IMG/VR virus record: IMGVR_UViG_2061766007_004178
DNA length: 64,000 nucleotides
Reading direction: 5' to 3' (one strand)
From: an uncultured virus (IMG/VR IMGVR_UViG_2061766007_004178)
Lineage: Duplodnaviria; Heunggongvirae; Uroviricota; Caudoviricetes
The notes beneath the pieces were generated by a model. It searched no databases and had not been told where the DNA came from. It was given only the letters and a program-made list of their open reading frames with translations. Within the stretch, counting starts at the first letter, position 1; every line of letters begins with the position of its first letter. Of the stretch, positions 1 to 64,000 are shown one piece after another. A program made the position numbers and the translations under genes.

Positions 1-554
1 ATGTCAGTCGCGAGCAAATCGATGGTATCGTCTACGAACAGCGTCGCGTCTGCCGTGGCGCTTATAGCCGTTACGATCCTCTCGAATGGATTATGCTTCT
101 TCGTGGCGTATAAAGCGCCTTTCGCTACATCGCTTCCCGAGCCGATGGCGATGTATTCGCTTATCTCTGAAACGCTTAAATCATTTCAGATAAGTCAGGC
201 TTTGTCCTTATAGGCGAAAATGAAAGAATTAGGCATCATCTCGCACGTAGCTTCCTCTTTGGCGCTGATATTGATGCCGTTTTGCTTTAAACTCGCGACT
301 ATGGCCGGAGCTATTGAGCAGACTATGCAATCGGTAGACATTTCGTCATTCAGCACGTTTTTGTCGATAATATTCGAATATTGGACTATTTGCAAAGCCC
401 TTATAGAGCCAACGCTGCCCATTATTGCGCCTGGCAAATCGGCGACTGGCCAAATCTTGGTGCATGTATGTTCTTTAGAATCGCCGGTGCTGACCTGTTT
501 GTCGGCGCCAAGAACGATTCTATCTTTATCACGAATTGCTATGACAAGAGACAT
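1..554 (-). CDS. HslV/proteasome-beta-like Ntn peptidase, runs off window; needs TGA=Trp
   Basis: N-term SLVIAIRDKDRIVLGADKQVS. Reading through TGA at 195-197 and 186-188 gives KDKAWLIWNDLSV..YIAIGSGSDVAKGAL, restoring the typical AIGSG motif. Confidence 0.8.
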
Positions 555-557
555 AAA

Positions 558-1160
558 CTAATCCTCCTTATAATGTTGTCAATGATAACCACCAGCAGTT
601 TTGCGGTGACCATGTAAGCAGCTACAAATATTAGTTGTTGTCGCTAAACCTAAAATATTTTTAGCTTCTGCAGTAGAGTTAAACACTCTGCCTAACTCTA
701 CACAATAAATTTTTCCTGTTTTACATAACCCATAACTTATAGCCAAATTATGCTCTGCTGAATGTTTTCTACCGGCCATTCTTTTACTGTGGGCTAATTT
801 TTGTTCTTCTGATTGTGGCTTACCCTTATTTCACGGTTCATGGTGAACAACAGAATCTCCACCTTCAGTCATATTATAGCCGTTACAATTTGGGCTATAA
901 ATTCAAGTATTGTAATATGAAATTCAATATTTTTCTCTTTTATTAGCTTCTTCTAAAGTTTCTATGTCAGACTCTAAGATCTCATGCTCAAAGTTTTCTC
1001 AGCCGTATTTTTGAATAGCTTCAGCAAAAATTCTTTGGTCTTTCAATGTATAGCCATAACCATTTTTCCATCTTAAATTTAATTTTGGTCTACTAGTTTG
1101 GCCAATATATCTTTTACCATTAATTTTATTAATATGACAATATATTATTCAAGTCTTCAT
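558..1160 (-). CDS. GIY-YIG homing endonuclease with NUMOD-like C-terminus, 200 aa with TGA=Trp
   Basis: IIYCHINKINGKRYIGQT, KYG*ENF, EKY*ISYYNT, GYNMTEGG, TAGGYH*Q. Six in-frame TGA (1149, 999, 924, 903, 831, 579), several at family-typical Trp positions. AT-rich relative to neighbours. Confidence 0.9.
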
Positions 1161-1162
1161 AA

Positions 1163-2086
1163 TTAATTCAATAAATCGGCCAAAGCCGCGGTCGCCGAGC
1201 GCTCTGATTTAACCAGATGCACGTAACCGAAAAGCTTTTCACCTGCTAAGTTCTCTATAAGCGTCTCGATGCCTTTCGACTTCTCAAAGACAGCTTTATC
1301 CCTTTGCCTGTTATCGGCGTCAAACCAAACCTCTGAGCCTTCTGCCGCTCGAGCGATGATAAGCTGTATATGCTCTTTCGTCAGGTTTTCCGCCTCTGAG
1401 CACATAATCAGCGTATTCTCCAGATTGCGGCCTCTCAGGGACTGCAATGGCTCGACGACCAATGTGCCTTTGTCGAGCATCGTTCTGACGCTATGCTCGC
1501 CGGCATGGTCGATGAACGGCCCCAAAAACGGAAGCAGCTTGTCTATGACTTCGCCTGGAAGCGCACCTAAATCTTTCGTATCGCGCACGTCGACATTGTT
1601 GCGAATCCATACGATTCTTTCGAACCTGCCGGCCTTCAGCGCCTCTAAAGCGGCCGTAACGAGGATGAGCGTTTTGCCTGTGCCTCAGGTTCCGGTCAGC
1701 AATTTGATGGTCTTCGATTCGTCTTTCATCAAATCGAAGGCGCATACTTGCTCGTCATTCCTCGGCGTAATGGTCACGCTCTTGCCTTTTGCGTATCTTT
1801 TTGCTGTCGTTCTCTGCGATTTATCGTCTTTCTCTTTCGTTTTCGACTCTCCGAGCGGAACAGGCGTCAAATCTTTGTAGGTCGTGATCGAGCCGCCTGT
1901 GAATTTCCTCAGCTGATTGTTCTCATAGCAGTAGAAAGTCGTCGAACCGTCGGTCGTATGGACGATCAGATACTCGTTCTCTCTGAGCTTGAGCGAGGTC
2001 GGAACCACGTTTTCCGTATAAAGGGCAAGCCATTCATCGGAAGTCGGATTCCAACGTTTCCAACCAGTGTAACCTGATTCAGTCAT
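1163..2086 (-). CDS. phoH: PhoH family ATPase; one in-frame TGA
   Basis: PRNDEQ..LLTGT*GTGKT Walker A (TGA 1685-1687), DLGALPG, LRGRNL, SEAENLT, RSATA. The two ORF-track pieces are one frame. Confidence 0.92.
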
Positions 2087-2162
2087 TAAATATCTCCTAT
2101 GTCGATAAACCTGAGTGCCATGTCGGCGTATCGCGCCCTAAATAACCAACAAGTTATCACAT

Positions 2163-2171
2163 TAATTTAGC
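2163..2171 (-). promoter_or_regulatory. GCTAAATTA motif, candidate phage late/middle promoter
   Basis: Same intergenic motif on the same strand at 21235, 24769, 25478, 31885 and 50098 (variant at 21171), each upstream of a gene start. Confidence 0.6.
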
Positions 2172-2181
2172 TTATATTAAT

Positions 2182-2211
2182 AAAAAGCCCCGCAAATTGC
2201 ATGCGGGGCTT
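2182..2211 (-). terminator. intrinsic terminator after TerD-like gene
   Basis: AAGCCCCGCA..TGCGGGGCTT hairpin followed by T run on the minus strand. Confidence 0.75.
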
Positions 2212-2233
2212 CAGTTTTGCTAGGGGTTTTCGA

Positions 2234-4242
2234 TTAAGCGAGCTCAGCGCCGTTGGCGAGCTGGACAAGCTTCTCGATCTCATACGGCCTGACGACCTTC
2301 TGAGCTTCTGTTGGCGTATAGGCGGCATCGAAGACGACATCGGCCTCTTCTGGAGTCGAGACGACCTCAGATCCTCTGTACTGAGCGACTAAGCCCATGT
2401 TGAGGTCTAAGCAGCTAGAAGATAAGTATTTCATTACTGTATCTTTCATATCGCCGGAAACAACGCGGTTTTCGGAGTCTAAGAGCATATTGAAGATGAC
2501 GACTTCATTGGTTTGTAAGTCAATACCAAATGACATAAAGGCACGGGTATCGCCCTTAACATGAATTTTTAATTCGATGTTCTTTGGATCCCAAGCTTTT
2601 GTATTCAAGTTGTTCTTGTCTTGGTAACCGCAGTAGATTTCTCCGCTGTTGAGGTTGGAACAGAAACCATGGAAAGCTTGAATGATGTAACGGACACCAT
2701 GTCTACGAAGGCCATCTAAGTCCATATCGTAGTATTCAGTGCCATTTGGGCTTGTGACGTCGCCGGAGAAAAGCAAATCGTTAGAGTATGCTTTATACAT
2801 GTAGTTGAAGAAACCCATAACGTCGACATTGCCTTTTTCATCAATGATGACTAATGAAGAGTCGATATCGAACGCATGTTCCCAGTGAACGAAAGTGCGG
2901 ATTTTGTTTCCTCTGACCGGAATTCTAGAGCCGGCTGGTAAGACATCAATACCTTTGCCGGAAGCAGAAGTGTTGACTGGAACGCCGACTTTGTAGAAGT
3001 CTTCAGAAACATAAACCTTACCTAAAGAAGGCTGAGCGCGGTAACCGGCCTCAATCTGAGCGAAGGTTGCGTCTTTGACCATCTTGCGGGTGGCGTCATT
3101 GAGCCTGGACTTTCTCCATTTGGCCTCATATTCGGTCTCAGTGTGCTTTTTGACGAGCTTGTTCTTGGTGAAAGCGAATGTGCGGTTTCCGCCGTTGTCT
3201 TCCATCAAGGTATTGACGAACTGATATAAGGCGACTGGGTTCTTTGATGGGATCATCTTGACGATCTCCAATGCCTCCGCCGGATTGGCGCGAGACATCA
3301 AATATTTGATGTTCCTCTCGAATAAGGAGCCATTTGCTGCATAGACTTTCGCCGCGCCTAAAACGTCGCCTTTGTTCATCAAAGCCTGGGCTTTTGCGTA
3401 TGGCGAACGCTTGTTGGTGGCAAGGCTGACTTTGCCCTGCGCGCCGACTTTATTGACCAAAGTATTGAAATATTTGGCCTGTTTCTTGGACATTGGGCAG
3501 TCTTTGACGTATGGGATAGCGCGTCTGATCAAATCTTTCGTCTCATCGTCTAAGATAAGCTTGGACTTCTCGCCGCAGCGGGAGACCGAAAGCTTGACCA
3601 AATCCTTTTTATAAAGGAAACGCGCGAAGTTTTCGTCTTTCTTAAGCATGGTGACCGCGTTATCGCCGCAAAGGATGTCGAAATCCTTGTAATAACCGTG
3701 CTCGCAGAGGTAAACGAATTCGTTTTCCTCGTCCAAAGACCATGGGCGCTTGTAATCGCAGTAGGCTTTGGCGATTCCGGACAAGACCTCATCGGCCTCA
3801 TCGACAGTCAAAATCTTGAATTCGCGGAGTTTGATCTCGCTGCCGACCGGATAGCTTGGCAGGTTCTTCTCGGCGCCGAATAAATCGATGGCGGAATTAG
3901 CCTCGCCATAAGCCAAGAAGTAGGAAACGACCTGGTTGACGAAAAGCTCGCCGGCGGNNNNNNNNNNNNNNNNNNTTCTTGTAGAAAGAAGCTGGGACAT
4001 CTAATCTGAACAAGTCAGAGATTTCTTTGACCGCCTCAGCGCTCAAAAGCTTGGGCCTGTCGACGACGATGCCGAAATTGGCGTATAAAAACGCGTTGTA
4101 ATAAGCGGCTTTGGCTGCATCGGCCTCTGCGACAGGAGNNNNNNNNNNNNNNNNNNNNNNCGATCAAAATGGTCATTTCGTTGACGTGGTTCTTCGATGC
4201 GATGGTCGAATTGGTTAATTCATAGAATTTCTCAAGTGTCAT
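2234..4242 (-). CDS. large protein with C-terminal TerD-like domain (~670 aa, spans N gaps)
   Basis: RTFVHW..DIDSSLV..FSGDVTS..GTEYYDMDL motifs. Frame is continuous from ATG 4242 (AGGAGG RBS) across two gaps. Confidence 0.7.
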
Positions 4243-4254
4243 AATAACCTCCTA

Positions 4255-4415
4255 ATAAAAAATAAAGCAGTTCTTAATGCGTCAGAAACCATCTCGCCTA
4301 ACGTATTAAAAACTGCTTTAATAAATTAAGTAATATGGCCTAACTATCTTAATAAACCAATTTTATTTCTAGAGAAATAAGTATAGGCTCTATCGTGAGG
4401 AATAACCCTCACATC
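4255..4415 (-). promoter_or_regulatory. structured 5' leader with three hairpins upstream of the TerD-like gene
   Basis: TATAAT at 4419-4424. Hairpins at 4395-4412, ~4337-4390 and 4263-4320 (~24 bp with G-U pairs, followed by a T run). Confidence 0.55.
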
Positions 4416-5027
4416 AATATTATACGATATTTTTTTAAATTTTTTTGTTTTTAGTAATCAAAACGGCAAATTCCTACTGAGGCCTCTGCCATCCTAGCCA
4501 CTTCAACAGCCACAGAATGCNNNNNNNNNNNNNNNNNNNNNNNNNNNAAGCGCTTCTAACCAGCTTTTGATCTCGTTTTTATCCAATAAGCTGTAATTTT
4601 TGGCTTCTTCTAAGGTTTTAATTAACGAATCAATATATTTGATCGCGCTTATTGATTCGGACATTTCCAACTCTGGATCCATAATCGCCTNNNNNNNNNN
4701 NNNNNNNNNNNNNCGTCGACTGAATTCTCAGTCGCGTCCGCCAGAACGTAGTCGTAATAGACTTCATTCGGCTCGATATTGGTATGGATGACCAACAAAT
4801 GCTGCTTACCGGTCTTTTCGGTGATGAGGTCGAGCAGCTGCGCTCTTTCGAGTTTGTCGAGATTCGGCCCATTGCCAAAATAAGTGTCTTTGATCAATGT
4901 ATCAGCCATTCGCTCGAGTATTTCCATTGCGCGCTCCAATTATGCCGTTCTTAATATACTATACGGTTTTTCCATAGATTTTAGCATATCGCCGAAAGCA
5001 AAACTGAATTGCCTGATAAGCTTATGC

Positions 5028-5417
5028 TTAGCGCTCTTTATATTCTGGAAGCCCTAAAGCCTTTTTGACCGCATTATACTCGGCGTTCTTCTTATCGATC
5101 GCCTCTCGCTCGCGCTTGTTGGTGAATATGCTCTTATCGACCGTATACCGCATGTCGATAAGCATGCGCTCAGGGTACTTCTCATAGAAGAACATGTCTG
5201 GGTGGTCCTGAACTTCGACATGCTCGCGAAGCACCTTAAGCACCCCTGCGTTATCGAGCTCTGACAGCTTATGCGTCGCCTTAGCGTCTGCTTCGGCTTC
5301 CACGTTCGCTATGAAGGTCTTCAGGGTCTCGAAGGCCTTATTGGCTTTCTCATCGTTTTCGTCATGGGCATCGACCCTAAGCTTGAGCTCCCATAGAGCG
5401 TCCATAAATCTATTCAT
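5028..5417 (-). CDS. hypothetical protein
   Basis: ORF in tightly packed operon. Confidence 0.7.
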   Translation of the reverse strand: MNRFMDALWELKLRVDAHDENDEKANKAFETLKTFIANVEAEADAKATHKLSELDNAGVLKVLREHVEVQDHPDMFFYEKYPERMLIDMRYTVDKSIFTNKREREAIDKKNAEYNAVKKALGLPEYKER

Positions 5418-5706
5418 CTTCGTTCTCGCTTTCTGCCTCTAAATCATGCGGATAGACCGTTATGCATCTCGTGCTCGTCGAAGCAAATACGAACACGTAT
5501 CCGTTATAATATTTTATTCTTCTGCGGTTGACTTCTTGTTTGCCCTGCAGCCAATCCCTGCCAGGTCCTGGTGGCAAGTTCTGCCAGCATTTCCCATACC
5601 TTTGGGCAAGCTTCATCATCTCTTTGGCTTTCTTCTTGCCCCAGCCGCAGCGCTCAGCCGCGCGAAAATACGCATGATCCGTATTCGGCGCCTTAATCCT
5701 GCTCAT
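5410..5706 (-). CDS. hypothetical protein (small, basic)
   Basis: ORF with TDHAYFRAAER..TRCITVY. Confidence 0.65.
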   Translation of the reverse strand: MSRIKAPNTDHAYFRAAERCGWGKKKAKEMMKLAQRYGKCWQNLPPGPGRDWLQGKQEVNRRRIKYYNGYVFVFASTSTRCITVYPHDLEAESENEDE

Positions 5707-6684
5707 TTTTGAAGGCCTTCTTAAACAGCTTCAGTCTCTTCTTAGCCGTCTCAAGCTGGCTGGCCGTCGGCTCATTGATTCCCAAAGCCTTGCAGATCTC
5801 CTCGATATTGTCGCTATCCAGTATGGATATCGGCTTNNNNNNNNNNNNNNNNNNNNACGCTGAAATCGGTCCTTTTGCCGTCTGCGGTTTTCGGATGCAC
5901 ATGTTCTTTCCTCCAGATGACCTCATTAGTCGCCCAGTCCAGCTTCATGATGGCGTACTCACCATTCCATTCGCCTTTCCTGAAAGCCCAACGATACTTG
6001 TGATACCGGCAGTAAGAATCATACCATTCAAGATAGCCCTGATTGATGCTGATGTCATGCTCCGTCAGATATTTGATGAATTCCTCTAAGCTTGCCGTAA
6101 ACTCATCGGCGGTAGCGTCTCTGAGGCTCGTCATAATCCCGCAGACGATNNNNNNNNNNNNNNNAGTCTTCTTGTATGCCGACGTATTGCTTCAAAGTGT
6201 CGAAGTTCCAGAATTCGAAATCGCTTCGCTCAAAGCCTTTGTACATCCTATCAACAGCAGCCCGATAGTACTCATACATGCAATCGTGATAAAAACCGCC
6301 CATCCAAGAGCTGCCGTCTGTATCACGTTGATCTAAAACGTACCTGAACCCAGTCTCACCTTGCGGAAAAATCTTAAACGCTTCAGCTAAGATCGGCTTG
6401 GCTCGCGGCAGAGAATATACGATCGCATCATCGAATTCAAGCAGCGGCTTATCGGTCTTACAATCGTGCCCTATAACTGGCGCGCCAAGCTTGAACTGCT
6501 CTTCTGGAAAAGGCAAATAAATCGCCTTGTGCCAGCGTTCTTTATAACCATCGCGTGCCGCTTCATATGCGGCATCGCTGTCAAAATAAGCGCGTTTCGG
6601 TTCGACTTCTTTGAAGTTCTTGTCAACTTCGAACGGAGAGCACCCGAAAGTCAATCCGCCGCGCACGTATGTCCATTCGCTCAT
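5693..6684 (-). CDS. hypothetical protein (three ORF-track pieces joined across N gaps)
   Basis: RBS GGAGG before 6684; the pieces abut the gaps. Confidence 0.6.
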
Positions 6685-6697
6685 AAACGATGACCTC

Positions 6698-7021
6698 CTA
6701 GTCCAAATAGCCTGGCTGCCCGGCCTGGCCGAGCAAAGACTTTAAAAACTCCGCCTTATTGCGAAGCTGATAAATAGCATATTCGATATCGCTGAGCTCG
6801 TTTCTAAGGTCGAGCTCGCAAATGTCTACGAAAAAGTCCTCCTCGAAGTCGTTATAGCCTATTTTCGGATACTTCTTCTTCGCCTCATCATAATCGAAGA
6901 TGCCAGCAAGCTTCTCATCTTGGGCATAGCCGGCATAGCTCGGCTTCCACCAAGCCTCATGCTCATTGCTGTAGATTTTAACGAGCTTCCTCATTATATG
7001 GCATACCGTCCTTTCCTTCAT
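6698..7021 (-). CDS. hypothetical protein
   Basis: ORF. Confidence 0.6.
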   Translation of the reverse strand: MKERTVCHIMRKLVKIYSNEHEAWWKPSYAGYAQDEKLAGIFDYDEAKKKYPKIGYNDFEEDFFVDICELDLRNELSDIEYAIYQLRNKAEFLKSLLGQAGQPGYLD

Positions 7022-7153
7022 CGCCTTCGATGAGCTCAGGGTCGTCTTTTTCCCTGCAGGCCATGCCGACGATCAAGCAGAATCCGACGATAAACGCCGC
7101 CGTAATACCAAACTTGATAAGCAAATCCAAAAGTATTGTCATTGTTTTACCTC

Positions 7154-7663: not shown

Positions 7664-7972
7664 AATAGCTGACCTCTAATTATATTATACAGCCGACTGA
7701 ACGCTTTTCTTGCTTGTTTCTGGCGCCCATTCTTTGACCGCTCGAATCTCGACCTCTAGAATCTTGTACGAGACGATAGCTTCTGGCCTGCTGNNNNNNN
7801 NNNNNNNNNNNNNNNNNNNNNNNGGATTGAACCAGCAAGCTTCAGGCACTTATCGCCGGCTTCTACGGCCCTATCGATCGAGTTGTATATCTTGGCTTTC
7901 CTCAATTGAGGACTGGTCGTGTTATAGCCACACCAATATAAGCCGTTGTTGAATCGTATTACGAACATTTGT

Positions 7973-10348: not shown

Positions 10349-10371
10349 GGTTATTTCTCCTTTTCAGAATG

Positions 10372-55478: not shown

Positions 55479-55676
55479 TCTAATACCTCATGTTCTTGAA
55501 GTGTTGCTACATCATATTTGTTTTCTTTGTCTGCGTATTCAGCCGCTTTATTCACGTTCATGAATACTCTGCAATATGGCGAAGCTCCGTATGGTGTTTG
55601 GTTTGTGGTTATTACAACATAGACTTTCATAATAGTTTGAGGTCTCCTTTCTTTGTTCGGATATATTTCATAGGCT

Positions 55677-56671: not shown

Positions 56672-56692
56672 GCGTGTCTCCTTAGATATGCG

Positions 56693-56932
56693 CTAGATGT
56701 CTTGTTTCCAGGTCATTTCACTCTGGATATAACGGTCTGTCAAGAATGGGCCTCTGAAGCAGCCTCTTGCATCGAAGCAGCTTTCGAAGAAACCGCCGGA
56801 GCCATAATTGATGTCTTGGATATAGCAGCTTCGTCCACCTAAGCATTGCTTATAAAGGATCGCTCTTTGCCGGCGGGTCAGCTTCATAAGCTCTTCCATG
56901 GTCGTGTATTTGCGAATGTCTTTCAATGTCAT
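56693..56932 (-). CDS. hypothetical protein
   Basis: Own promoter. Confidence 0.6.
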   Translation of the reverse strand: MTLKDIRKYTTMEELMKLTRRQRAILYKQCLGGRSCYIQDINYGSGGFFESCFDARGCFRGPFLTDRYIQSEMTWKQDI

Positions 56933-57000
56933 AGGTTCTATCTCCTTAGCGAATATATTATGGCGTAAAGGAAAAGCCGCGTAAACGGTTTTTGCGCGGT

Positions 57001-57411
57001 TTAGTTCCAGGTCAGGTTCGCTCGATGCGAATAGCAGTCCAAGAGCAGTTGTCTGAAATCATCTTCTTGGCCGGCGAACCTGCCGAAGCTAATGTCTTTG
57101 CCTTTCAATAGGTCATACAGTTTCTTGCAGATTTTATAGTTGATTTTCCCATTGGTGTCGTTTTCGTATATGAAATCGACGATGTCCTTATCCAGATTTT
57201 TGCTCTTTATGATAGCATTAAGTCTGTCGTTAAGTTTTTTCCAGTCATCGTCCTTCCATAAGCACATCGCTTCTGCAGAATAGACTTTCTTATATTCTTT
57301 GCCATAGTCTTCATCAAGGAATGAGGCTATTTTTTGCCTCAGGATCCCGAATGAGATATAGCCGACGTCGATCTCTTTTTCAGAGCCTTTGCTTTGTAAA
57401 GTTAACCCCAT
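57001..57411 (-). CDS. hypothetical protein
   Basis: AGGAG RBS. Confidence 0.7.
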   Translation of the reverse strand: MGLTLQSKGSEKEIDVGYISFGILRQKIASFLDEDYGKEYKKVYSAEAMCLWKDDDWKKLNDRLNAIIKSKNLDKDIVDFIYENDTNGKINYKICKKLYDLLKGKDISFGRFAGQEDDFRQLLLDCYSHRANLTWN

Positions 57412-57439
57412 AGCTGTTTCTCCTATGCTTTGTCGTGTT

Positions 57440-57769
57440 TCATCGTCTGTTTTCCTTATTGTATTCTTTGAACTTTTCGAACGCTTTTCGTGGAGCCCTT
57501 ACCTTTAGGAGCCAGCAGCCGACGCCATCTTCGCTGAACTTGCGCAGTTGCTCTCTTTCGAGCTCTCGTATCGTCTTGGCTATCTCTGGGTGATCTTGCG
57601 CCAGAAGCCATGTGCTTTCTTCGAACGACACGCAGCATGTTTCGCCGTCGGGCGTTCTGAAATACTTGTCGACGAACCTCGCTTTGGGACTGGGATTCAG
57701 CGACACTGTGAACATAGGGCCGAGCCAGTTCGCGCCGAATGTGAACGATTCTTTGGTTTTGGTTTTCAT
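57440..57769 (-). CDS. hypothetical protein (leaderless, TGA stop)
   Basis: TTTACG-17-CATAAT then ATG 6 nt later. Confidence 0.6.
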   Translation of the reverse strand: MKTKTKESFTFGANWLGPMFTVSLNPSPKARFVDKYFRTPDGETCCVSFEESTWLLAQDHPEIAKTIRELEREQLRKFSEDGVGCWLLKVRAPRKAFEKFKEYNKENRR

Positions 57770-57819
57770 GTTTGTATTATGCCGCGATTCGTCGGCTTCG
57801 TAAATGGTTTTTGCGATGG

Positions 57820-58132
57820 CTAGCCGATGATATTCTGATGGCGCGCGACTTCCGCCGGCACCTTGATGTCGCCGGGTCTTTCGTCGGAGTCGAGCCACAT
57901 CTGCTTGAATGGCGTTCCAGGCTTTTTGCTGGTTTTGACGACGCAGAGTCTGAGCGGATAGCCCATCTCATCATAGGAGATGAACGAGCTTTCTGTGACT
58001 ACCTTGAAGCATTCGTTTTTCTTTTCGCTCACATCTTCGATGATGTAGGCCGTCAATACAGCCGCCGCCCAACCGATAGAGATAAATGCGACCGCGAGAG
58101 CGATCAGCTCTAATATGCTTAGCGTAAACATA
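57820..58132 (-). CDS. membrane-anchored hypothetical protein
   Basis: N-terminal hydrophobic helix. Confidence 0.6.
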
Positions 58133-58135
58133 TGA

Positions 58136-58615
58136 TTATTCAAGCTCCTCTCTGGTGAACGCCCAGGTTTTGCCGTAGTCTTTAAGCGCCCACCATTCCG
58201 CCTCGTCGAAGTTATAATGGCTGGAAGTCAGATACCAGCTGTTAAGGCCGTCATAGTTTCTCTCTAAGGTGACGTAGAATTTTCCGATGCCCTGCTCGCC
58301 CGTCTGTTCGCCTAGGAAGTTGACTTGCTTATATTTGGCGTAAACGCCTTGCGTCAGCGCTTTGAGCACTACGTCGGCTGGGCAGCCGAGGTTTTCCTCG
58401 AGGGCTTCCAATTTCGCGGCGGCTTCCTTCTTGCTGAGCTTGCTGCATTTTGCGGGAAGTTCTTCGTCTGGGATTTTCTCCAATCCGTCTAGATTGAAGC
58501 CGAAGAATATGATTTCGTATAAGAGCCATAAGCCGAATGGGATGGTGACACCCAATCTCCAGCCTAAAGGCAAATCATTAACCCATACGCATACGATGGC
58601 TAAGATGCTTAACAT
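58136..58615 (-). CDS. hypothetical protein, DYGKTW family
   Basis: Paralog of the adjacent gene. Confidence 0.65.
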   Translation of the reverse strand: MLSILAIVCVWVNDLPLGWRLGVTIPFGLWLLYEIIFFGFNLDGLEKIPDEELPAKCSKLSKKEAAAKLEALEENLGCPADVVLKALTQGVYAKYKQVNFLGEQTGEQGIGKFYVTLERNYDGLNSWYLTSSHYNFDEAEWWALKDYGKTWAFTREELE

Positions 58616-58983
58616 TTCGTTTGTCCTCCTTTTTCCAGCTCTTCTTTGGTGAGAGCCCAACCGCCCGGCGTTTTCTTGCCGTAGTCTTCGAACTTGAAGT
58701 ATTTGAATTGCGCGTCCTCGTCGTCGCCCCAGGCATAGTAGACCTTGACGAGATACTTGCGGCCGATATAGCTGACGTCGGAATGATAGATGTACCCTCG
58801 ATCGTCTATCTCATAGACGCCTTGTTTGAGCGCCTTGAATAAAACGTCGATAGGACAGCTGAGCGCGTCTTCGATGTCTTCGACCTCGCTGAGCTTATCG
58901 TAGATGGCGAGCTTAAGCTCGAAGTCTTCAAGACCTGCGGCGGTATTCGGCATGTGAGTGTTTTTATCGGTCAATCTGGTCAT
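58609..58983 (-). CDS. hypothetical protein, DYGK..WALT family
   Basis: CPIDVLFKALKQGVY. Confidence 0.7.
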   Translation of the reverse strand: MTRLTDKNTHMPNTAAGLEDFELKLAIYDKLSEVEDIEDALSCPIDVLFKALKQGVYEIDDRGYIYHSDVSYIGRKYLVKVYYAWGDDEDAQFKYFKFEDYGKKTPGGWALTKEELEKGGQTKC

Positions 58984-59411
58984 GAGAATATCTCCTTGAG
59001 AAGGTCGAACTCGTCTTGGGCGAGCTCTGGGAACTTGCTTCGTGAATCGGTATGCATGTTGTTGTACTCCTCCAAAGATCCGAGCGCTTTAACGAGCTTG
59101 ACGTTCACAGTCTTCTTTTTAAGCACCTCAAGCGCCTCGAGCTTCTTTTTGACTTCTGGGCAGTTGTCGAGAAAGAACTTCTCAAAGGCTTTGTCGACAG
59201 TGGTAGTCCCGACGATTTTCTTTTCTTCACCGGTCCTGACCGTTCCGATGAAGTTAAGCACTTCTTCGTAGGATTCGATTTTCGCCAAGCATTCATTTTG
59301 CTCTTTTTCGTCAAAATGAGGATGAACGCTTATTAGATAAGATAATCTATCTTTCGCTTCTTCTAGCTTCTTCTTAACGAAGTCATAGATTTCTTTTTCT
59401 GTTCTTTTCAT
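58980..59411 (-). CDS. hypothetical protein, DEFDLLKE family (TGA stop)
   Basis: ATGA overlap. Confidence 0.7.
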   Translation of the reverse strand: MKRTEKEIYDFVKKKLEEAKDRLSYLISVHPHFDEKEQNECLAKIESYEEVLNFIGTVRTGEEKKIVGTTTVDKAFEKFFLDNCPEVKKKLEALEVLKKKTVNVKLVKALGSLEEYNNMHTDSRSKFPELAQDEFDLLKEIFS

Positions 59412-59504
59412 AGTGGTTGGTCCTTACTGTTTCTTCTTCGTTCGCATGATTATAATATCACGAAGAAAAAAACATGCAAACGGTTTTTTCGCATGTTTGT
59501 GATT

Positions 59505-59915
59505 TTATTTCCAGACAGGTTTTCCCCACTCATATTTCGCGGGCAATTCGAACTTGCCTGTTTCTTTGTTGTATCTCATGGCGTAGAGAAGCCCCTTGCC
59601 GTCGACCCAGATGGCTCCGTATACGTGGTCTTCAGGCTTAAGCTCGAACAGCTCAGGCTGCGGCGATGAGTCGAACGCGTACTTCCAAAGCCTGGTGCCG
59701 TCTTGCTTAACGCTGTCGAGGACGATCGCGCCGACGCCTTCGAGAACCGTGGCGTCGATGAGCTCTTCCGGATTCTCTGCCGTGCCGTGGACCTCGCAAT
59801 GCCAATCATCAAGGTATTCTCTGCCGCTGGCGACTAGATACGATTTGTTCCAGAAGTCGTCTAAATAGGTCTTTATCACCTCAAAGATGCCGTCGTTAGT
59901 TTTAATGTAAAGCAT
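59505..59915 (-). CDS. hypothetical protein, YGAIWV family
   Basis: YIKTNDGIF..VYGAIWV. Confidence 0.7.
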   Translation of the reverse strand: MLYIKTNDGIFEVIKTYLDDFWNKSYLVASGREYLDDWHCEVHGTAENPEELIDATVLEGVGAIVLDSVKQDGTRLWKYAFDSSPQPELFELKPEDHVYGAIWVDGKGLLYAMRYNKETGKFELPAKYEWGKPVWK

Positions 59916-59917
59916 TT

Positions 59918-60770
59918 TTATATTTGCGCCTTTCCGATGTATTCTACCTCAGACCAGTTAGGGTCGTCTGGGTCGAACCAAGAAATTGTTTGATCTTTCA
60001 TTTCATGTTCTTTGTCGAGCTTCGTTATGTTATCTTTCAATAGGCTTTCGGCGGCAAAGGTTGTGAATGGCTTATGCAGCTGATGTGGCCTAAGATCACG
60101 ATTATAAGTATCCTCAGTTTCTTCAATGAGCTTGTCATAGGCTATCATATAGCCGGCTTTGCGGAATTCGCTGAGCTCTTTTGGTTTTTCGAGCACTGTG
60201 AAATCACGGATGCGCCAGAGATAGCCGACGATTCTTGTGTCCGCAAGCCTGAGGCGTTTGCCTATTCTGTCGTAGATGTCGTTGAAATCCAGGCCAGAGA
60301 GCCTTTCGATTCTGCTTTGATCGCAATAGAAATCGGTTTGGCCGGTCGATTTGTCGTTGAATTCTATCGGCTCGACGTCGAACAGAACGAATCTGGCTAC
60401 CGCTTTGCCATTGGCCAGGTAGTCATCGGGAGGGACATTCCAATTAACCGCTTGGATATCCTGGAACCATTCTTCGCGCTTGTCATAAAACCGATCGCAA
60501 TCGGCATCGAAGTCTTTGCAATACGCGTAATAGAAATCAGATGTGCAGCTGCCGTAGCAGCCGGTCTCGNNNNNNNNNNNNNNNNNNNNNNNNNNNNNNN
60601 NNNNNNNNNNNAAGCTCTGCGCCTTCGGCGCTGACGTAAACGAAAACCTCGCAAGGAAGCTCGCATTCAGGCACCGCTTTCGATACGATGGCGGATATTT
60701 CGCCGGTTACGCCTTTATTAATTAATTTTTGGGCAGGCACGACCGGCAGATAGAGCAAAAGGGTATTCAT
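59918..60770 (-). CDS. ASCH/PUA-like domain protein (gapped)
   Basis: PECELPCEVFVYV, NGKAVARF, EKPKELSEF; paralog of 61768-62361. Confidence 0.55.
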
Positions 60771-61150
60771 TGTTTTCTGCAGACGCATATTTTGGCGTCC
60801 GCTTCTTTGGCCGTTTCTACGGCTGAGGTCACGAGTGATAGCTCAGCTTCGTCGTCTTTTTCGCATCCGACGAATACGAATGCGTTCGCGTCATGGTAAA
60901 TCGCGTGATAGGCCGAATTGCTTCTGACCCATTCCGGAAGGCCTCCGTACGTTCTTTGCGGCCTAAGCTGGTTGACGCCGTTTATGATGAAGAAGAACCT
61001 ATGCTCTTTCTTTTTCTCGAGATAGCTTTTGATGCGGCCGATTTCCTGCTCGGTCAGCTCTTTGCCGACGTTGCACCAGCCGAATGACTCAGAGATGCCG
61101 CTGTCCCAGTTTTTCGTGAGCCAGCCTAAAAGACCTTTGACGGTTTTCAT
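60767..61150 (-). CDS. hypothetical protein (TGA stop)
   Basis: ATGA overlaps at both ends. Confidence 0.65.
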   Translation of the reverse strand: MKTVKGLLGWLTKNWDSGISESFGWCNVGKELTEQEIGRIKSYLEKKKEHRFFFIINGVNQLRPQRTYGGLPEWVRSNSAYHAIYHDANAFVFVGCEKDDEAELSLVTSAVETAKEADAKICVCRKQ

Positions 61151-61320
61151 TCGCTCACCTCGACAGGCTTGACGCCCAAGACTTTGATGTCGATGACCAT
61201 CATGTCGCGGGCTTTTTGTTCCGCGCTTCCGATATCGTCGGCCGCCACCATGATCCAGCGGTCCTTCATATCTTCGACGCCTTCGTCTACGAGATGGAAT
61301 TTGACTGAGTAGCTTTGCAT
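61147..61320 (-). CDS. small hypothetical protein (TGA stop)
   Basis: GAGGAG RBS, ATGA overlap. Confidence 0.6.
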   Translation of the reverse strand: MQSYSVKFHLVDEGVEDMKDRWIMVAADDIGSAEQKARDMMVIDIKVLGVKPVEVSE

Positions 61321-61342: not shown

Positions 61343-61418
61343 TGGTGCTCCCAGGTGGATTCGAACCACCGACCGCACGATTATAAGTCGTGAGCTCTGA
61401 CCGCTGCGCTATGGGAGC
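61343..61418 (-). tRNA. tRNA-Ile, anticodon UAU, encoded CCA
   Basis: GCTCCCA acceptor stem, CACGA-CTTATAA-TCGTG anticodon arm, GGTTCGAATCC T arm, ACCA end, 76 nt. Confidence 0.95.
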
Positions 61419-61767: not shown

Positions 61768-62361
61768 TTATACATAGCGCCAGCCATGTGGGATTCCGGT
61801 CAAAGGCTCGTAGACGTGATTGCAGATATCGTACTCAAGGTCTGGGCTGTTGTGCTTGCACTTCTCGCAATTCCCGTCGCACATATGATAGATTTCTTTG
61901 AGCTCCATCGGTTTCTCCAATTTCGATAGCTCATTGATGAACCAGGCATATCCATAGGAATTGGCGCCGAGATATTTTAATAGCTCGCCTGTGCTGAGCT
62001 TGGATTTTTCGAACATCTCGTCTTTTGCCCAGACATGGTTTTCCCCGCTGACATGGGTACGATAGTTCTCGCCATTCCATTTGCAGTTGACGCAGACCCT
62101 ATCGAAGTCTTTCAGCACGAACTTAGCGACGACTTTGCCGTTGAGCGCATAGCTTGGCCTAAAGTTTTTGTTGTATTCTTCGGCAAAATATTCGCCGGTC
62201 GTACGCTCTTTGAAGAGCAATGAGCCTTTCTTGGCCACGTAAACGAGGACTTCGCAAGGCAGCTCGCAATCAGGTATGCTTTTGCGCACTTCGATCGTCG
62301 CCTTGCCATTGAGCAACAATGCCGCGCGCTCTGGGCTGACCACTAATATAAGACGTCTCAT
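61768..62361 (-). CDS. ASCH/PUA-like domain protein
   Basis: LLNGKATIEVRK, NGKVVAKF, GYAWFI. Confidence 0.7.
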   Translation of the reverse strand: MRRLILVVSPERAALLLNGKATIEVRKSIPDCELPCEVLVYVAKKGSLLFKERTTGEYFAEEYNKNFRPSYALNGKVVAKFVLKDFDRVCVNCKWNGENYRTHVSGENHVWAKDEMFEKSKLSTGELLKYLGANSYGYAWFINELSKLEKPMELKEIYHMCDGNCEKCKHNSPDLEYDICNHVYEPLTGIPHGWRYV

Positions 62362-62372
62362 TCTAGCGCTCC

Positions 62373-62606
62373 TTATGGCCTGACGTTTCCGTCAGGGTCG
62401 AGCCTTTTGATCTCGAAGGCGTATCTGTTGGAGATCTTGGAAAGGTGCCTGGCATGCGTCCTTGCAGCCGTATCGCCTGTATGGTAATTGACGAAGTATT
62501 CGTCGCCTCCGCAGACTCTTTTCACGATGCCTAATTCGACTTTGGTTCCGTTCGTGTAGATGACCGGTTCGCCGACGTCGTATTCAGGGTATTCTCTTTC
62601 GTTCAT
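62373..62606 (-). CDS. hypothetical protein
   Basis: AGGAG RBS. Confidence 0.6.
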   Translation of the reverse strand: MNEREYPEYDVGEPVIYTNGTKVELGIVKRVCGGDEYFVNYHTGDTAARTHARHLSKISNRYAFEIKRLDPDGNVRP

Positions 62607-62702
62607 TCTGAAGGCTCCTTTCTTTTGATTGGGTTTATTATGTCGTAATTCTGACATAAAGTAAACGGCGAAATGCGATTATCGAAAAATCGCTTGCGTT
62701 TC

Positions 62703-63218
62703 TTAAGCGGAATATCTTTCTAAGACCGTTCCGAACGGCACATAGATATTGTAATAGTAATTTTTTGGGTCTGTGAATTCGCTTTTGCATCTATAGATTG
62801 ACGGATCGATTTGGTCTGTCTCGACCAAATAAATTGTATGGCTGNNNNNNNNNNNNNNNNNNNTGTTCTCGCCGACTTCGCGATAGTAATAGTAGACCGG
62901 TCTTTCGCTTACCGTGCCGTAGCCGATGCGGAATCTGCCGTAAACGCCGGTATCTCGATCGAGCGATGCGATTTTAGAGACCAGGGTTTCGTAGCCGGCA
63001 TCGAATTGCTCTTGCCATTGCGCATGCGATTTCCATGCAAAGACTATTGTTAAGATTGAGATGGCGACGGCTCCGACGCAGCCAACCGCGCCGAGTATAT
63101 ATTTCCATTCGCGTTCGTCCATGAAGGTGGCGATAGCGACCAAAGCCAATACGATAAACGCGAGTATTACAGCTGCTAAACAAACAGTGCAAATGACTGT
63201 GCTTGTTAAATCGTTCAT
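62703..63218 (-). CDS. membrane protein
   Basis: Two N-terminal TM segments. Confidence 0.7.
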   Translation of the reverse strand: MNDLTSTVICTVCLAAVILAFIVLALVAIATFMDEREWKYILGAVGCVGAVAISILTIVFAWKSHAQWQEQFDAGYETLVSKIASLDRDTGVYGRFRIGYGTVSERPVYYYYREVGENXXXXXXXSHTIYLVETDQIDPSIYRCKSEFTDPKNYYYNIYVPFGTVLERYSA

Positions 63219-63234
63219 AGTATCTCCTTATATT

Positions 63235-63678
63235 TTATTGCCACGAAATGTGGAGGTCGTCCCAGTCGTCGTTGGTCCTGACCTGTTTGACGGTGTATTT
63301 GTGCTTTGCGTTCAAATCGAAGGCGACTTCGGCGCAAAGACGTTTGCCGAGCTTTCGAGGCCAGCGATATATGAGCGCCTGCTCATTTTTCTCTTTCGCG
63401 AAATCGATGCAGAGCAAGATGTCTTCGATTGCTTTGTCGTAATCCGATTTGCGGTCATGGGCCTCTTTGATGGCCTGGAAGTAGGACATAGGGTCGCATT
63501 CTTTTTCGAGCGCGCTTTCCCCGACGTCCCACTGGGCTATGCTAGCGACTTCTTCGGTCAGGCAGTCTAAGCTGCATTTTTCCGGATAGAGAAGCTCAAG
63601 CCTGTATTCTGTCGGGGATATCTGGTAGAAATCGTCGCAGATGTGCTTCTGCTTGTCGGTCAATTCGATGATGTACAT
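63235..63678 (-). CDS. hypothetical protein
   Basis: ORF. Confidence 0.65.
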   Translation of the reverse strand: MYIIELTDKQKHICDDFYQISPTEYRLELLYPEKCSLDCLTEEVASIAQWDVGESALEKECDPMSYFQAIKEAHDRKSDYDKAIEDILLCIDFAKEKNEQALIYRWPRKLGKRLCAEVAFDLNAKHKYTVKQVRTNDDWDDLHISWQ

Positions 63679-63709
63679 ATTGTCGTCTCGTCTTTCCGCC
63701 TTGATTGGG

Positions 63710-63991
63710 CTAATTTTCTTTTGAGCTGTTGATCTTTAACAATACCTCATCGTAGTGCTTTTCGCGCACTTTAGAGCGTATTTGGCAAAGGTTGAACGTG
63801 ATATTGCAGACAAACGTTATAAGAAGGATATACAAGATTTCCCAAGCATCTGAGTGCTTTTCGATGAATGTGGCAAGGCATATGCCAATTACGACGGCCG
63901 CGACGAAAAGGATGCCGCAGGTGACCCAGCTGGCGAAAATGCTCGCTTCGCTGTCTTTGATTCTTTGTTTAAGGTAATCGTTGAATGTCAT
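63710..63991 (-). CDS. small membrane protein
   Basis: Two TM segments. Confidence 0.65.
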   Translation of the reverse strand: MTFNDYLKQRIKDSEASIFASWVTCGILFVAAVVIGICLATFIEKHSDAWEILYILLITFVCNITFNLCQIRSKVREKHYDEVLLKINSSKEN

Positions 63992-64000
63992 GACGTTCCC

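What the first reader, a model, noticed from the sequence alone, without database searches (positions are those of the whole stretch)
1..64000. TGA has two meanings in one genome, partitioned by promoter class: Trp, stop, or avoided
Seen in sequence, three zones. (1) TGA is sense in the HslV-like gene (186, 195), GIY-YIG (6 sites), PhoH (1685, inside Walker A), the paralog array (28999, 29510, 30383, 30701, 31062) and the Zn-finger gene (47662). Several of these align with Trp in family motifs or in-window paralogs. (2) TGA is a stop in right-arm genes. ATGA stop/start overlaps occur at 54990, 55475, 55627, 55677, 56057, 58980, 60767 and 61147. TGA ends at 40258 and 52771 would otherwise fuse genes across a promoter or RBS. 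(3) Genes from ~5 to 25 kb (cca, lig, nrdD etc.) use TGG for Trp and end in TAA/TAG. Established: stop-codon-recoded phages (TAG->Gln, TGA->Trp) of standard-code gut hosts are known and proposed to gate late genes. Inference: a temporal switch from early (stop) through middle (neutral) to late (Trp), with the recoded operons sitting behind GCTAAATTA.
Basis: partly seen in the sequence, partly recalled or inferred. Interest (0 to 1): 0.9.

Follow-up and report, generated by a model that had tools for sequence, protein, structure and literature searches.

The report
Phage reads TGA two ways
This stretch of a large uncultured rumen phage uses the codon TGA as an ordinary stop in its early genes and as tryptophan in a few later operons, a known phage strategy that is unusually sharp here and follows the type of promoter in front of each operon.

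Summary

- **TGA as Trp:** relatives swap TGG and TGA at the same column in PhoH, the HslV-like gene and GIY-YIG. In-window paralogs have Trp at three array TGAs.
- **TGA as stop:** 13 genes free of masked runs end in TGA, all in early-type units. Homologs end at the same point for two of them. The rest rest on ATGA/RBS junctions and a shift of the coding frame.
- **TGA absent:** the 2.2-23.6 kb genes have 0 TGA against 84 TGG and no clean TGA stop.
- **Artefacts:** two of my own gene finder's TGA ends (37558, 6105; not reader coordinates) come from masked N runs that break frames. Five more are unsafe.

GCTAAATTA is a real, clade-wide, promoter-like motif. In relatives it marks the TGA=Trp operons: 78 of 126 genes against 3 of 107 behind sigma70-like promoters in G4.

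Four relatives at least 93% complete carry tRNA(UCA), and three carry TrpRS beside it. The window holds neither.

Block-wise mixed codes are published, and this scan noted them before on other DNA. New here are frequent true TGA stops at 48% GC and the link to promoter class. The timing is inferred.

The parts
3..554 (-). HslV-like peptidase gene that runs off the window. It has in-frame TGA at 195-197 and 186-188.
   Evidence: Pfam Proteasome and PHROG HslV. The TGAs align with TGG in 7 of 7 and 5 of 7 relatives.
558..1160 (-). GIY-YIG homing endonuclease. Six of its seven Trp codons are TGA (1151, 1001, 926, 905, 833, 581). GC is 32%, against 47-50% in the neighbouring genes.
1163..2086 (-). 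PhoH-like ATPase with TGA at 1685-1687 inside the Walker A motif (GT-W-GTGKT).
   Evidence: Pfam PhoH, E 4.8e-32. The column is TGG in 6 relatives and TGA in 7.
2163..2171 (-). GCTAAATTA promoter-like motif behind a terminator hairpin, heading the PhoH / GIY-YIG / HslV unit.
   Evidence: The same motif lies just upstream of PhoH in G1, G4 and G5 (positions compared).
2234..23600 (-). TGA-free stretch: 588-aa protein, CCA-adding enzyme, DNA ligase, nucleoside deoxyribosyltransferase, NrdD, NrdG, thioredoxin-like protein and thymidine kinase. It holds 84 TGG and 0 in-frame TGA. All 34 genes without a masked run end in TAA or TAG.
   Evidence: Several intergenic -10-only (T/C)GTATAATA sites lie here.
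21235..21243 (-). GCTAAATTA motif ahead of the trx / nrdD / nrdG unit, which holds no TGA.
24769..24777 (-). GCTAAATTA motif. The TGA ends of the two downstream genes cannot be trusted because of masked runs.
25478..25486 (-). GCTAAATTA motif ahead of two small TGA-free genes.
25492..27628 (-). Early-type unit behind sigma70-like promoters at 27628 and 27047, lying between two GCTAAATTA units. Gene 26208-26618 ends in TGA, and the next start (AAGGAG, ATG 26203) follows directly.
28831..31878 (-). Array of eight paralogous small genes. In-frame TGA at 31062-31064, 30701-30703, 30383-30385, 29510-29512 and 28999-29001.
   Evidence: Paralog alignment. Coding density is 0.972 under code 4 and 0.869 under code 11.
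31885..31893 (-). GCTAAATTA motif 6 nt before the first ATG of the array, just after the terminator at 31907-31929.
33739..34281 (-). Early gene ending in TGA at 33739-33741.
   Evidence: Homologs in G4 and G2 end within five residues of this TGA.
40258..40596 (-). Early gene ending in TGA at 40258-40260. It is followed by TTCGCT-N17-TATAAT (40226-40198), an RBS and ATG 40167.
   Evidence: Homologs in G4 and G2 end within three residues. Sequence read.
41046..41387 (-). Early gene ending in TGA, with the next TAA/TAG four codons on.
47357..47688 (-). Zn-finger gene upstream of the helicase. TGA at 47662-47664 is its ninth codon. Masked runs break the frame further down.
   Evidence: The homolog in G5 is one gene and carries its own TGA at a different site.
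50098..50106 (-). GCTAAATTA motif ahead of a stretch with poor coding signal (48-50 kb).
50721..61320 (-). Right-arm early genes ending in TGA: 50721, 54990, 55475, 55677, 56057, 57440, 58980, 60767 and 61147. All but 57440 share an ATGA stop/start overlap with an RBS just upstream; 57440 also reads ATGA, but the next gene starts at ATG 57411, behind its own RBS. 52771 is TGA followed by AAGGGG-N9-ATG.
   Evidence: The 204-aa product of 56057-56671 has no homolog other than itself among 100 candidates.
61343..61418 (-). tRNA-Ile(UAU), the only tRNA in the window.

Best explanation
The window is the non-structural part of a roughly 230-kb, T4-like uncultured rumen myovirus. It belongs to a clade that reads TGA as tryptophan with its own opal-suppressor tRNA.

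Shown:
- In this one genome TGA is a working stop in genes behind sigma70-like promoters.
- TGA is a Trp codon in a few operons behind the clade's own single-element promoter-like motif (tATTTGCTAAATTAwwTG).
- TGA is avoided altogether in the nucleotide-metabolism and repair genes in between.

Inferred:
- The host uses the standard code. Host RNA polymerase transcribes the early genes at once, and host RF2 ends them at TGA.
- A middle set of genes is written to be readable under either code. In relatives this set appears to include the tRNA(UCA) and TrpRS module.
- Once the suppressor has built up, the GCTAAATTA operons can be translated through their TGA codons. So the code and the promoter class together gate late expression.
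- In this phage the suppressor gene probably lies in the tRNA cluster just beyond the left edge of the window, where its closest relative G1 has a tRNA cluster.
For: TGA read as Trp:
- TGG and TGA swap at conserved Trp columns.
- In-window paralogs confirm three of the five array TGAs as Trp, and a fourth must be read through.

TGA read as stop:
- Homolog C-termini match the TGA at 40260 and 33741.
- A promoter and RBS lie between the TGA at 40258 and the next start.
- ATGA overlaps with an RBS, together with a shift of coding signal into another frame after the TGA. At 58982 the score is -10.4 in frame against +18.7 in the other frame.
- Code 11 gives the higher density and score in the right arm; code 4 does in the array and the PhoH unit.

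Partition:
- 13 clean TGA stops lie in early-type units, 0 of 34 in the middle stretch, and none that are clean in GCTAAATTA units.

The motif behaves like a promoter:
- 6 exact copies against 0.57 expected, all on the coding strand.
- It is strand-biased in relatives: 24/1, 36/3, 36/5 and 35/3.
- 125 of 137 copies are intergenic, mostly 16-60 nt before a start codon, with no conserved -35 element.

Link between motif and code in relatives: G4 p 4e-24, G5 p 3e-14, G1 p 0.001, G2 p 3e-4.

Code-change parts in relatives:
- tRNA(UCA) is present in G2, G3, G4 and G5.
- TrpRS (TIGR00233, above its cut-off) lies beside it in G3 and G5. G4 has a tRNA-synt_1b hit by Pfam only. None of the three has an internal TGA.
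- A TTGTATAATA site lies directly upstream of the tRNA in G3, G4 and G5.

Map of G5: the replication module is free of TGA, while structural genes and PhoH are rich in it.
Against: - No suppressor tRNA, TrpRS or release factor lies in the window. The part of the closest relative G1 that is held (64% complete) has no tRNA(UCA) either. The window's own contig could not be found in the public collections.
- No expression data exist, so promoter classes and their timing rest on sequence resemblance.
- Four of the six GCTAAATTA units in the window hold no sense TGA.
- The Zn-finger TGA is not behind an exact motif. The nearest detected promoter is the sigma70-like one at 48190.
- In relatives some genes assigned to early promoters hold TGA (G5 15/131, G2 9/122), and by codon count G2 shows no difference.
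- The G5 major head gene holds no TGA.
- In relatives TGA stops are rare and not enriched in early units. Frequent TGA stops are therefore special to this 48%-GC phage.
- Gene calls and operon assignment come from my own simple gene finder. Genes within one operon are not independent, so the Fisher p-values are generous.
- Only 2 of the 13 TGA stops could be checked against homologs. The right-arm genes are orphans.
Confidence: 0.66

Rival explanations
1. Soft, untimed ambiguity. The suppressor is present through most of the infection and always competes with RF2, so every TGA is read both ways. The pattern then reflects tolerance, not timing. Small early orphan proteins tolerate occasional C-terminal extensions. 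Low-abundance proteins tolerate partial truncation. Highly expressed or essential enzymes avoid TGA.
For: - The Mgcod preprint proposes a 'soft' switch (passages seen).
- The major head gene of G5 has no TGA although it is late.
- The middle genes avoid TGA in both senses.
- In G3, G4 and G5 the tRNA(UCA) lies behind a -10-type site like those of host-read promoters, so it could be made early.
Against: - Read-through of 40258 or 52771 would fuse two proteins, across a promoter in the first case.
- Early genes use TGA stops at about 21% (13 of 63 genes; the other 50 include a few with unsafe ends), which shows no sign of selection against them, whereas the middle genes have 0 of 34. That contrast is what a difference in timing predicts.
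- The Walker A Trp of PhoH must be read efficiently for the protein to work.
Confidence: 0.17
2. A lineage in transit between codes. This higher-GC member of an AT-rich TGA=Trp clade is losing the recoding (or gained it recently). Its few sense TGAs would be leftovers or imports, and TGA stops are spreading back under GC pressure. On this reading the promoter link is history, not regulation.
For: - The window is 47.7% GC against 27-33% in five relatives. TGA makes up 3% of Trp codons here against 13-47% there. TGA ends about 20% (raw count) of genes here against 3-7% there.
- Six of the 15 sense TGAs lie in a 32%-GC homing endonuclease that looks imported.
Against: - The two HslV TGAs are TGG in nearly all relatives, so they arose in this lineage.
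- The PhoH TGA sits at an essential position.
- Five more TGAs lie in a 51%-GC paralog array native to this genome.
- The three-way partition is sharp rather than scattered.
- This reading is compatible with the best explanation rather than a replacement for it.
Confidence: 0.1
3. One code throughout (code 4, as in a TGA=Trp host). On this reading TGA never stops translation, and the right-arm 'TGA ends' are Trp codons near the C-termini of overlapping genes.
For: - Several extensions are short: 1 to 14 codons at 54992, 41048, 61149, 55477, 26210, 50723 and 60769.
- Density under code 4 is no worse at 32-50 kb (0.837 against 0.832).
Against: - Homologs end at the TGA in both testable cases.
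- The extensions of 39-60 codons score negative in frame (58982: -10.4; 56059: -3.6; 55679: -0.6) while another frame scores positive (18.7; 11.8; 5.5).
- Eight ATGA junctions have an RBS just upstream.
- A promoter lies inside the would-be fusion at 40258.
- At 50-64 kb density is 0.900 under code 11 against 0.865, with half the gene overlap.
- Relatives carry their own suppressor tRNA and TrpRS, which a code-4 host would make needless.
Confidence: 0.04
4. Artefact. Either the TGA-containing genes are decaying pseudogenes, or the window is a chimeric assembly of a code-4 phage and a code-11 phage.
For: - The sequence comes from a metagenome. It carries 34 masked runs that break frames.
- The GIY-YIG gene differs in composition.
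Against: - The TGAs sit at conserved Trp columns of otherwise intact genes.
- The TGA-stop genes at 41046, 40258 and 33739 lie inside the stretch that is syntenic with the single contig G1, which also holds PhoH.
- An early-type unit with a TGA stop (26208) lies between two GCTAAATTA units.
- Right-arm genes have homologs in G5 of the same clade.
- Contigs from other runs cover much of 26-34 kb: one X6 contig spans 29335-34000 with internal gaps, and separate contigs cover 26000-29286. No single contig spans the whole stretch.
Confidence: 0.03

Closest known systems
Stop-codon-recoded gut and rumen phages with a predicted switch from standard to alternative code during infection (Borges et al., bioRxiv 10.1101/2021.08.26.457843; passages seen). 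The closest group is the TGA-recoded, roughly 200-kb 'Jade' phages, which carry a suppressor tRNA + TrpRS + RF1 module.
   Same: - TGA is read as Trp in only part of the genome.
- The host is inferred to use the standard code.
- Relatives carry tRNA(UCA) with a TrpRS that is itself written without TGA.
- Alternatively coded modules are spread over a genome of about 230 kb.
- Structural genes are recoded in relatives, and the replication module is not.
   Different: - No RF1 was found in 0 of 5 relatives searched.
- That paper proposes that the codon is first lost as a stop in low-GC phages. It cites 4 of 146 genes ending in TGA in a standard-code relative. Here 13 of 63 early genes end in TGA at 48% GC.
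- The recoded genes visible here are PhoH, an HslV-like protein, a homing endonuclease, a paralog array and a Zn-finger gene, not lysis or structural genes.
- The word 'promoter' does not occur in that text.
- Membership of the Jade clade was not tested, because it needs their terminase tree.
[quoted passage not shown]
   Same: Some parts of one genome are best read with code 11 and others with code 4. One part (2.2-23.6 kb here) reads the same under both codes, which they call 'dual-coded'.
   Different: - In their data the code switch closely follows a change of coding strand, and the standard-code block is usually dual-coded.
- Here nearly all genes lie on one strand.
- The units alternate every 2-5 kb.
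- The early units are not dual-coded: read-through would add up to 232 codons.
The early / middle / late promoter programme of phage T4: sigma70-type early promoters, middle promoters lacking a -35 element, and single-element TATAAATA late promoters. This is recalled from general knowledge and was not checked in any call.
   Same: - Gene content of the relatives is T4-like: UvsX, clamp and clamp loader, split topoisomerase II, NrdD/G, RNA ligase, tail sheath, baseplate hub, gp23-like head protein, prohead protease and portal.
- Three promoter-like classes are present, one of them an A/T-rich single element without a -35.
   Different: - The motif is GCTAAATTA, not TATAAATA.
- No gp55-like or MotA-like factor was named by PHROGs among the 137 G5 proteins scanned.
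- No transcription data exist.
- T4 itself uses the standard code.
Homing endonuclease genes written in the recoded late code of a phage. This lead came from earlier scan note e1-5661084, which cites a recoded intron endonuclease of Agate phages in Borges et al. I did not read that passage.
   Same: A GIY-YIG endonuclease with 6 of its 7 Trp codons as TGA sits among genes that use few or no TGA codons.
   Different: Here the endonuclease lies inside a recoded operon, not among early genes. Its 32% GC points to import from an AT-rich relative.

Membership tests
TGA-to-Trp (code 4) recoded phage | In-frame TGA at conserved Trp positions of intact genes | tested here: met
   PhoH, the HslV-like gene, GIY-YIG and the paralog array. 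Relatives' TGA codons align with the window's TGG in 12 of 17 cases (G3), 9 of 12 (G5), 8 of 11 (G4) and 4 of 5 (G1).
TGA-to-Trp (code 4) recoded phage | Phage-encoded suppressor tRNA with anticodon UCA | tested here: inconclusive
   The window holds only tRNA-Ile(UAU). tRNA(UCA) is present in all 4 relatives that are at least 93% complete, and absent from the held 64% of G1. The rest of this genome could not be found.
TGA-to-Trp (code 4) recoded phage | Recoded codons concentrated in late (structural or lysis) genes and scarce in early genes | tested here: inconclusive
   The window has no structural genes. In relative G5 the structural module is rich in TGA and the replication module free of it. 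In the window, early-type units hold 0 clear sense TGA.
TGA-to-Trp (code 4) recoded phage | Host uses the standard code | not testable with these tools
   The host is unknown. The nearest cultured phages are only 35% identical in PhoH. A standard-code host is inferred from the TGA stops in early genes and from the suppressor + TrpRS module in relatives.
Block-wise multiple-code phage genome (Mgcod type) | Separate parts best read by code 11 and by code 4 | tested here: met
   Coding density and score per region under each code.
Block-wise multiple-code phage genome (Mgcod type) | Code switch coincides with a switch of coding strand | tested here: not met
   All units concerned lie on the minus strand.
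Block-wise multiple-code phage genome (Mgcod type) | The standard-code block reads almost the same under both codes (dual-coded) | tested here: not met
   Thirteen early genes end in TGA, and code 4 would extend them by 1-232 codons. The feature is met only for 2.2-23.6 kb.
Jade clade (Borges et al.) | Code-change module of suppressor tRNA + TrpRS + RF1 | tested here: not met
   In relatives only: tRNA(UCA) with TrpRS nearby in G3 and G5, and with an unconfirmed tRNA-synt_1b hit in G4. RF1 was found in 0 of 5. None of these parts lies in the window.
Jade clade (Borges et al.) | Placement in their large-terminase tree | not tested

The most novel reading that the evidence does not exclude
A genetic code wired to promoter class. 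In this clade of T4-like rumen jumbo phages, three promoter types on one strand would map onto three ways of writing genes:
- sigma70-type early units, where TGA is an ordinary stop;
- -10-only middle units that avoid TGA altogether and, in relatives, carry the tRNA(UCA) + TrpRS switch itself;
- GCTAAATTA units that need TGA read as Trp.

That would be the first circuit-level picture of a natural code switch. This 48%-GC member would also show that a codon can stay a frequent true stop while also being a sense codon. That runs against the view that the stop must first become rare.
Probability: 0.45. Interest if true: 0.65.

Novelty: new variant of a known kind. Interest (0 to 1): 0.5.

Why it matters
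The temporal code-switch idea for recoded phages is widely cited but has never been shown directly. Most known cases avoid the recoded codon in early genes, so they cannot tell a 'hard' switch from a 'soft' one.

In this phage the same codon is a frequent real stop in one set of operons and an essential Trp in another. One of those Trp codons lies in the Walker A motif of PhoH. The model therefore makes sharp, checkable predictions:
- Early proteins should end at TGA.
- Late proteins should carry Trp at TGA.
- Early proteins should gain extensions only if they are still being made late in infection.

The promoter motifs give handles for transcript mapping and for annotating such genomes. A gene caller that uses one code will mis-call part of any genome like this one. 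The work is computational, and the phage is uncultured.

Tried and rejected
- **Finding the rest of this genome.** An exact 50-base search found nothing in viral or metagenome contigs, and no whole genome is held. The suppressor could therefore not be sought in this phage itself.
- **Near-identical phage records.** None were found for window 1-8000 or 27000-35000.
- **Relatives of right-arm genes.** The 204-aa product of 56057-56671 had no relative in viral contigs. It found only itself among 100 candidates in the protein collection and had no match in five related genomes. So 11 of the 13 TGA stops rest on intrinsic signals only.
- **The odd tRNA of G1** (48045-48118). It has a six-base anticodon loop and no UCA, so it is not an opal suppressor.
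- **A named late sigma or activator.** PHROGs gave no such name among the 78 + 59 G5 proteins scanned. I make no claim about which polymerase factor reads GCTAAATTA.
- **Expression.** No RNA holder is listed for this DNA.
- **Strain variation at the TGA sites.** Contigs of four runs were laid on 26-34 kb. Only 40 of 706 differences are printed, and none of those falls on a TGA codon, so the result is not usable either way. In X5, X6 and X7 the ATG just after the TGA at 29510-29512 is changed (29508, 29509). That weakly argues against a restart there.
- **Rfam.** The only match above gathering score is the tRNA.
- **The base after the TGA.** Sense and stop TGAs showed no obvious difference by eye, and I did not pursue it.
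- **TGA = Gly (code 25).** I considered this for the Walker A site. It was dropped once relatives showed TGG at that column.

Full report
**What the window is.** Nearly all genes lie on the minus strand and are read from 64000 down to 1.
- Named genes include an HslV-like peptidase, a GIY-YIG endonuclease, PhoH, a CCA-adding enzyme, DNA ligase, NrdD/NrdG, thymidine kinase, a methyltransferase and a helicase. Most right-arm genes have no named family.
- No whole genome is held. The contig itself was not found by exact search.
- Fifty-one related loci in viral contigs were found through PhoH.
- I fetched five related records whole: G1 (146 kb, 64% complete, 81% PhoH identity, syntenic with window 1-42 kb), G2, G3, G4 and G5 (166-237 kb, 93-100% complete).
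- G5 carries a T4-like gene set.
- The nearest cultured phages are only 35% identical in PhoH.
- DNA runs that hold the window are labelled bovine gut or rumen metagenomes. No RNA holder is listed.

**A caveat about the sequence.** The window contains 34 masked N runs.
- Reading frames are not kept across them. After the runs at 37559-37573 and 6150-6164, the homolog in G1 continues in a different frame of the window.
- The apparent TGA ends at 37558 and 6105 are therefore artefacts.
- Those at 53999, 24129, 23692, 15502 and 4503 lie just downstream of masked runs, and I set them aside.

**TGA as tryptophan.**
- In PhoH the TGA sits in the Walker A motif. Across relatives the same column is TGG (6) or TGA (7), and other conserved Trp columns swap the two codons in the same way.
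- The two HslV TGAs align with TGG in 7 of 7 and 5 of 7 relatives. They therefore arose in this lineage.
- In the GIY-YIG gene, 6 of 7 Trp codons are TGA. Its GC is 32%, against 47-50% next door.
- In the eight-member paralog array, three TGAs align with Trp in sister copies. A fourth lies between conserved blocks. The fifth (30703) lies in an N-terminal extension and is less sure.
- The Zn-finger gene has TGA as its ninth codon, after a strong RBS and ATG, with no other start before the conserved motif.
- Seen from the other side, TGA codons of relatives align with the window's TGG in 4 of 5 (G1) to 12 of 17 (G3) cases.

**TGA as stop.** Thirteen genes without masked runs end in TGA.
- For the two with detectable homologs (40258-40596 and 33739-34281), the proteins of G4 and G2 end within three residues of the TGA at 40260 and within five at 33741.
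- After 40258 come a sigma70-like promoter, an RBS and ATG 40167.
- Eight sites are ATGA stop/start overlaps with an RBS just upstream.
- Past the TGA the coding signal leaves the frame and appears in another.
- Read as code 4, the genes would run on for 1 to 232 codons.
- 52771 is followed by AAGGGG-N9-ATG. I take it as a stop, but my gene finder preferred a fusion, so I left it out of the 13.
- The right-arm genes are orphans. For 11 of the 13 stops the case is therefore intrinsic only.

**TGA avoided.** Between 2.2 and 23.6 kb there are 84 TGG and no in-frame TGA. The 34 genes free of masked runs all end in TAA or TAG.

| Region | Density, code 11 | Density, code 4 | Score, code 11 | Score, code 4 |
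|---|---|---|---|---|
| 50-64 kb | 0.900 | 0.865 | 1260 | 1133 |
| Paralog array | 0.869 | 0.972 | 208 | 243 |
| 0-2.2 kb | 0.600 | 0.732 | 79 | 106 |

Fisher tests on the partition give p between 2e-8 and 0.0035. Genes within an operon are not independent, so these values are generous.

**Promoter classes.**
- GCTAAATTA occurs six times, against 0.57 expected, always on the coding strand and between genes.
- The same nine bases are strongly strand-biased in G1, G2, G4 and G5, but there are only two copies in G3.
- Of 137 copies, 125 are not deep inside a called gene. Most lie 16-60 nt before a start codon. The extended consensus is tATTTGCTAAATTAwwTG, with no conserved -35 element.
- Sigma70-like TTTAC-N17-TATAAT sites number 25 on the minus strand and 4 on the plus strand. 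They lie mostly between 64 and 23 kb, each followed by an RBS and ATG.
- A third class, (T/C)GTATAATA without a -35, is seen in intergenic gaps of the TGA-free stretch.

I assigned each gene to its nearest upstream promoter, using gene calls from my own finder.

| Genome | Behind sigma70-like, genes with in-frame TGA | Behind GCTAAATTA, genes with in-frame TGA | p |
|---|---|---|---|
| Window | 1/54 | 6/31 | 0.009 |
| G1 | 5/61 | 34/113 | 0.001 |
| G2 | 9/122 | 36/154 | 3e-4 |
| G4 | 3/107 | 78/126 | 4e-24 |
| G5 | 15/131 | 65/115 | 3e-14 |

- By codon count G2 shows no difference.
- In the window only two of the six GCTAAATTA units carry sense TGA.
- The Zn-finger gene is not behind an exact copy of the motif.

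**Code-change parts.**
- The window has one tRNA, Ile(UAU).
- G2, G3, G4 and G5 each carry a tRNA with anticodon UCA. G3, G4 and G5 also carry tRNA-Trp(CCA).
- G3, G4 and G5 carry a class Ib synthetase near the UCA tRNA. It scores as TrpRS above the curated cut-off in the two I scanned, G3 and G5, and none of the three has an internal TGA.
- RF1 was found in 0 of 5 relatives, while the control search rang in 10 of 14 known genomes.
- In G3, G4 and G5 a TTGTATAATA site lies directly upstream of the UCA tRNA.
- In G1 a tRNA cluster starts right after the HslV-like gene. In this phage the cluster, and perhaps the suppressor, would then lie just beyond window position 1.

**How this phage differs from its relatives**.

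| | Window | Relatives |
|---|---|---|
| GC | 47.7% | 27-33% |
| TGA share of Trp codons | 3% | 13-47% |
| Genes ending in TGA (raw) | about 20% | 3-7% |

In relatives the early blocks simply lack TGA.

**Comparison with what is known.**
- Borges et al. describe TGA- and TAG-recoded gut phages. [quoted passage not shown] They describe a suppressor + TrpRS + RF1 module in Jade phages. They propose that the codon first becomes rare as a stop (passages seen).
- Pfennig et al. describe block-wise multiple codes. In their data the switch usually tracks a strand change, and the standard block is usually readable under both codes (passages seen).
- A search for recoding terms together with 'late promoter' listed 12 of 35 papers that hold four of the five terms. 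None of the 12 contains 'late promoter'. The word 'promoter' is absent from the Borges text. I did not see any supplements, and they may bear on stop-codon usage.
- Earlier notes of this scan report similar dual-code phages on other DNA.

**Verdict.** The dual meaning of TGA in this genome is solid. The mechanism follows the published model: a suppressor tRNA made by the phage, early genes in the standard code and later genes in code 4. It fits the relatives, but the window itself lacks the suppressor, and no expression data exist.

Three things are new:
- true TGA stops at a normal frequency in early genes of a 48%-GC member of the clade;
- a three-way partition on a single strand;
- a clade-wide link between TGA=Trp and a specific promoter-like motif.

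Noticed in passing
window, 34 N runs (e.g. 37559-37573, 6150-6164): Masked stretches do not preserve the reading frame. Genes that cross them appear split or falsely ended, and homologs in G1 continue in another frame.
   Followed up: yes
window 558-1160: The GIY-YIG endonuclease has 32% GC among genes of 47-50% GC, and 6 of its 7 Trp codons are TGA. It looks like a recent import from an AT-rich, heavily recoded relative. Its best match in G1 lies far from PhoH (121018-121608).
   Followed up: partly
window 30325-30764: A contig seen in runs X6 and X7, which look like one data set filed twice, joins 30325 to 30764. What lies between the two sides is reported as 'not known'. If nothing does, that strain lacks one unit of the paralog array.
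   Followed up: no
window 4425-23533, minus strand; G3, G4 and G5 just upstream of tRNA(UCA): A third promoter-like class, (T/C)GTATAATA with no -35 element, marks intergenic gaps of the TGA-free genes. The same ATTGTATAATAT site lies directly before the suppressor tRNA in three relatives.
   Followed up: partly
window 31878-31893 and 44111-44125: The promoter-like motif ends only 5-6 nt before the ATG (GCTAAATTA-ttcaga-ATG; GCTAAAATA-tacat-ATG). These two genes may be translated from leaderless or nearly leaderless mRNAs.
   Followed up: no
G2 (L074) 2900-2995, minus strand: The tRNA(UCA) of G2 is 96 nt long, with a long extra arm that contains a ...GTCCAAA... stretch resembling a Trp (CCA) anticodon loop. 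Earlier scan notes describe such an arm in other phages. I did not fold it.
   Followed up: no
G5 84256-87344 (L066): NrdD is in two pieces, with a GIY-YIG endonuclease gene (85334-85939, holding TGA codons) between them. In the window NrdD is a single gene.
   Followed up: no
window 47700-50300: This stretch has poor coding signal and a different AT skew. It holds a plus-strand gene (49242-49715) with its own sigma70-like promoter that ends in TGA, and a cluster of three -10 boxes at 48095-48190 with no clear gene behind them.
   Followed up: no
G1 48045-48118 (L056): A tRNA-like gene with a six-base anticodon loop, which ARAGORN calls 'Asn|Stop (tt)'. It is not a UCA suppressor.
   Followed up: partly
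window 15306-15672: A peptide deformylase gene appears in pieces around masked runs. G5 has an intact homolog (208124-208852).
   Followed up: no
window 28567, 34597, 35483 and 40203 (-10 boxes): Several early-type promoters share a variant -35 element, TTCGCT, in place of TTTAC.
   Followed up: no
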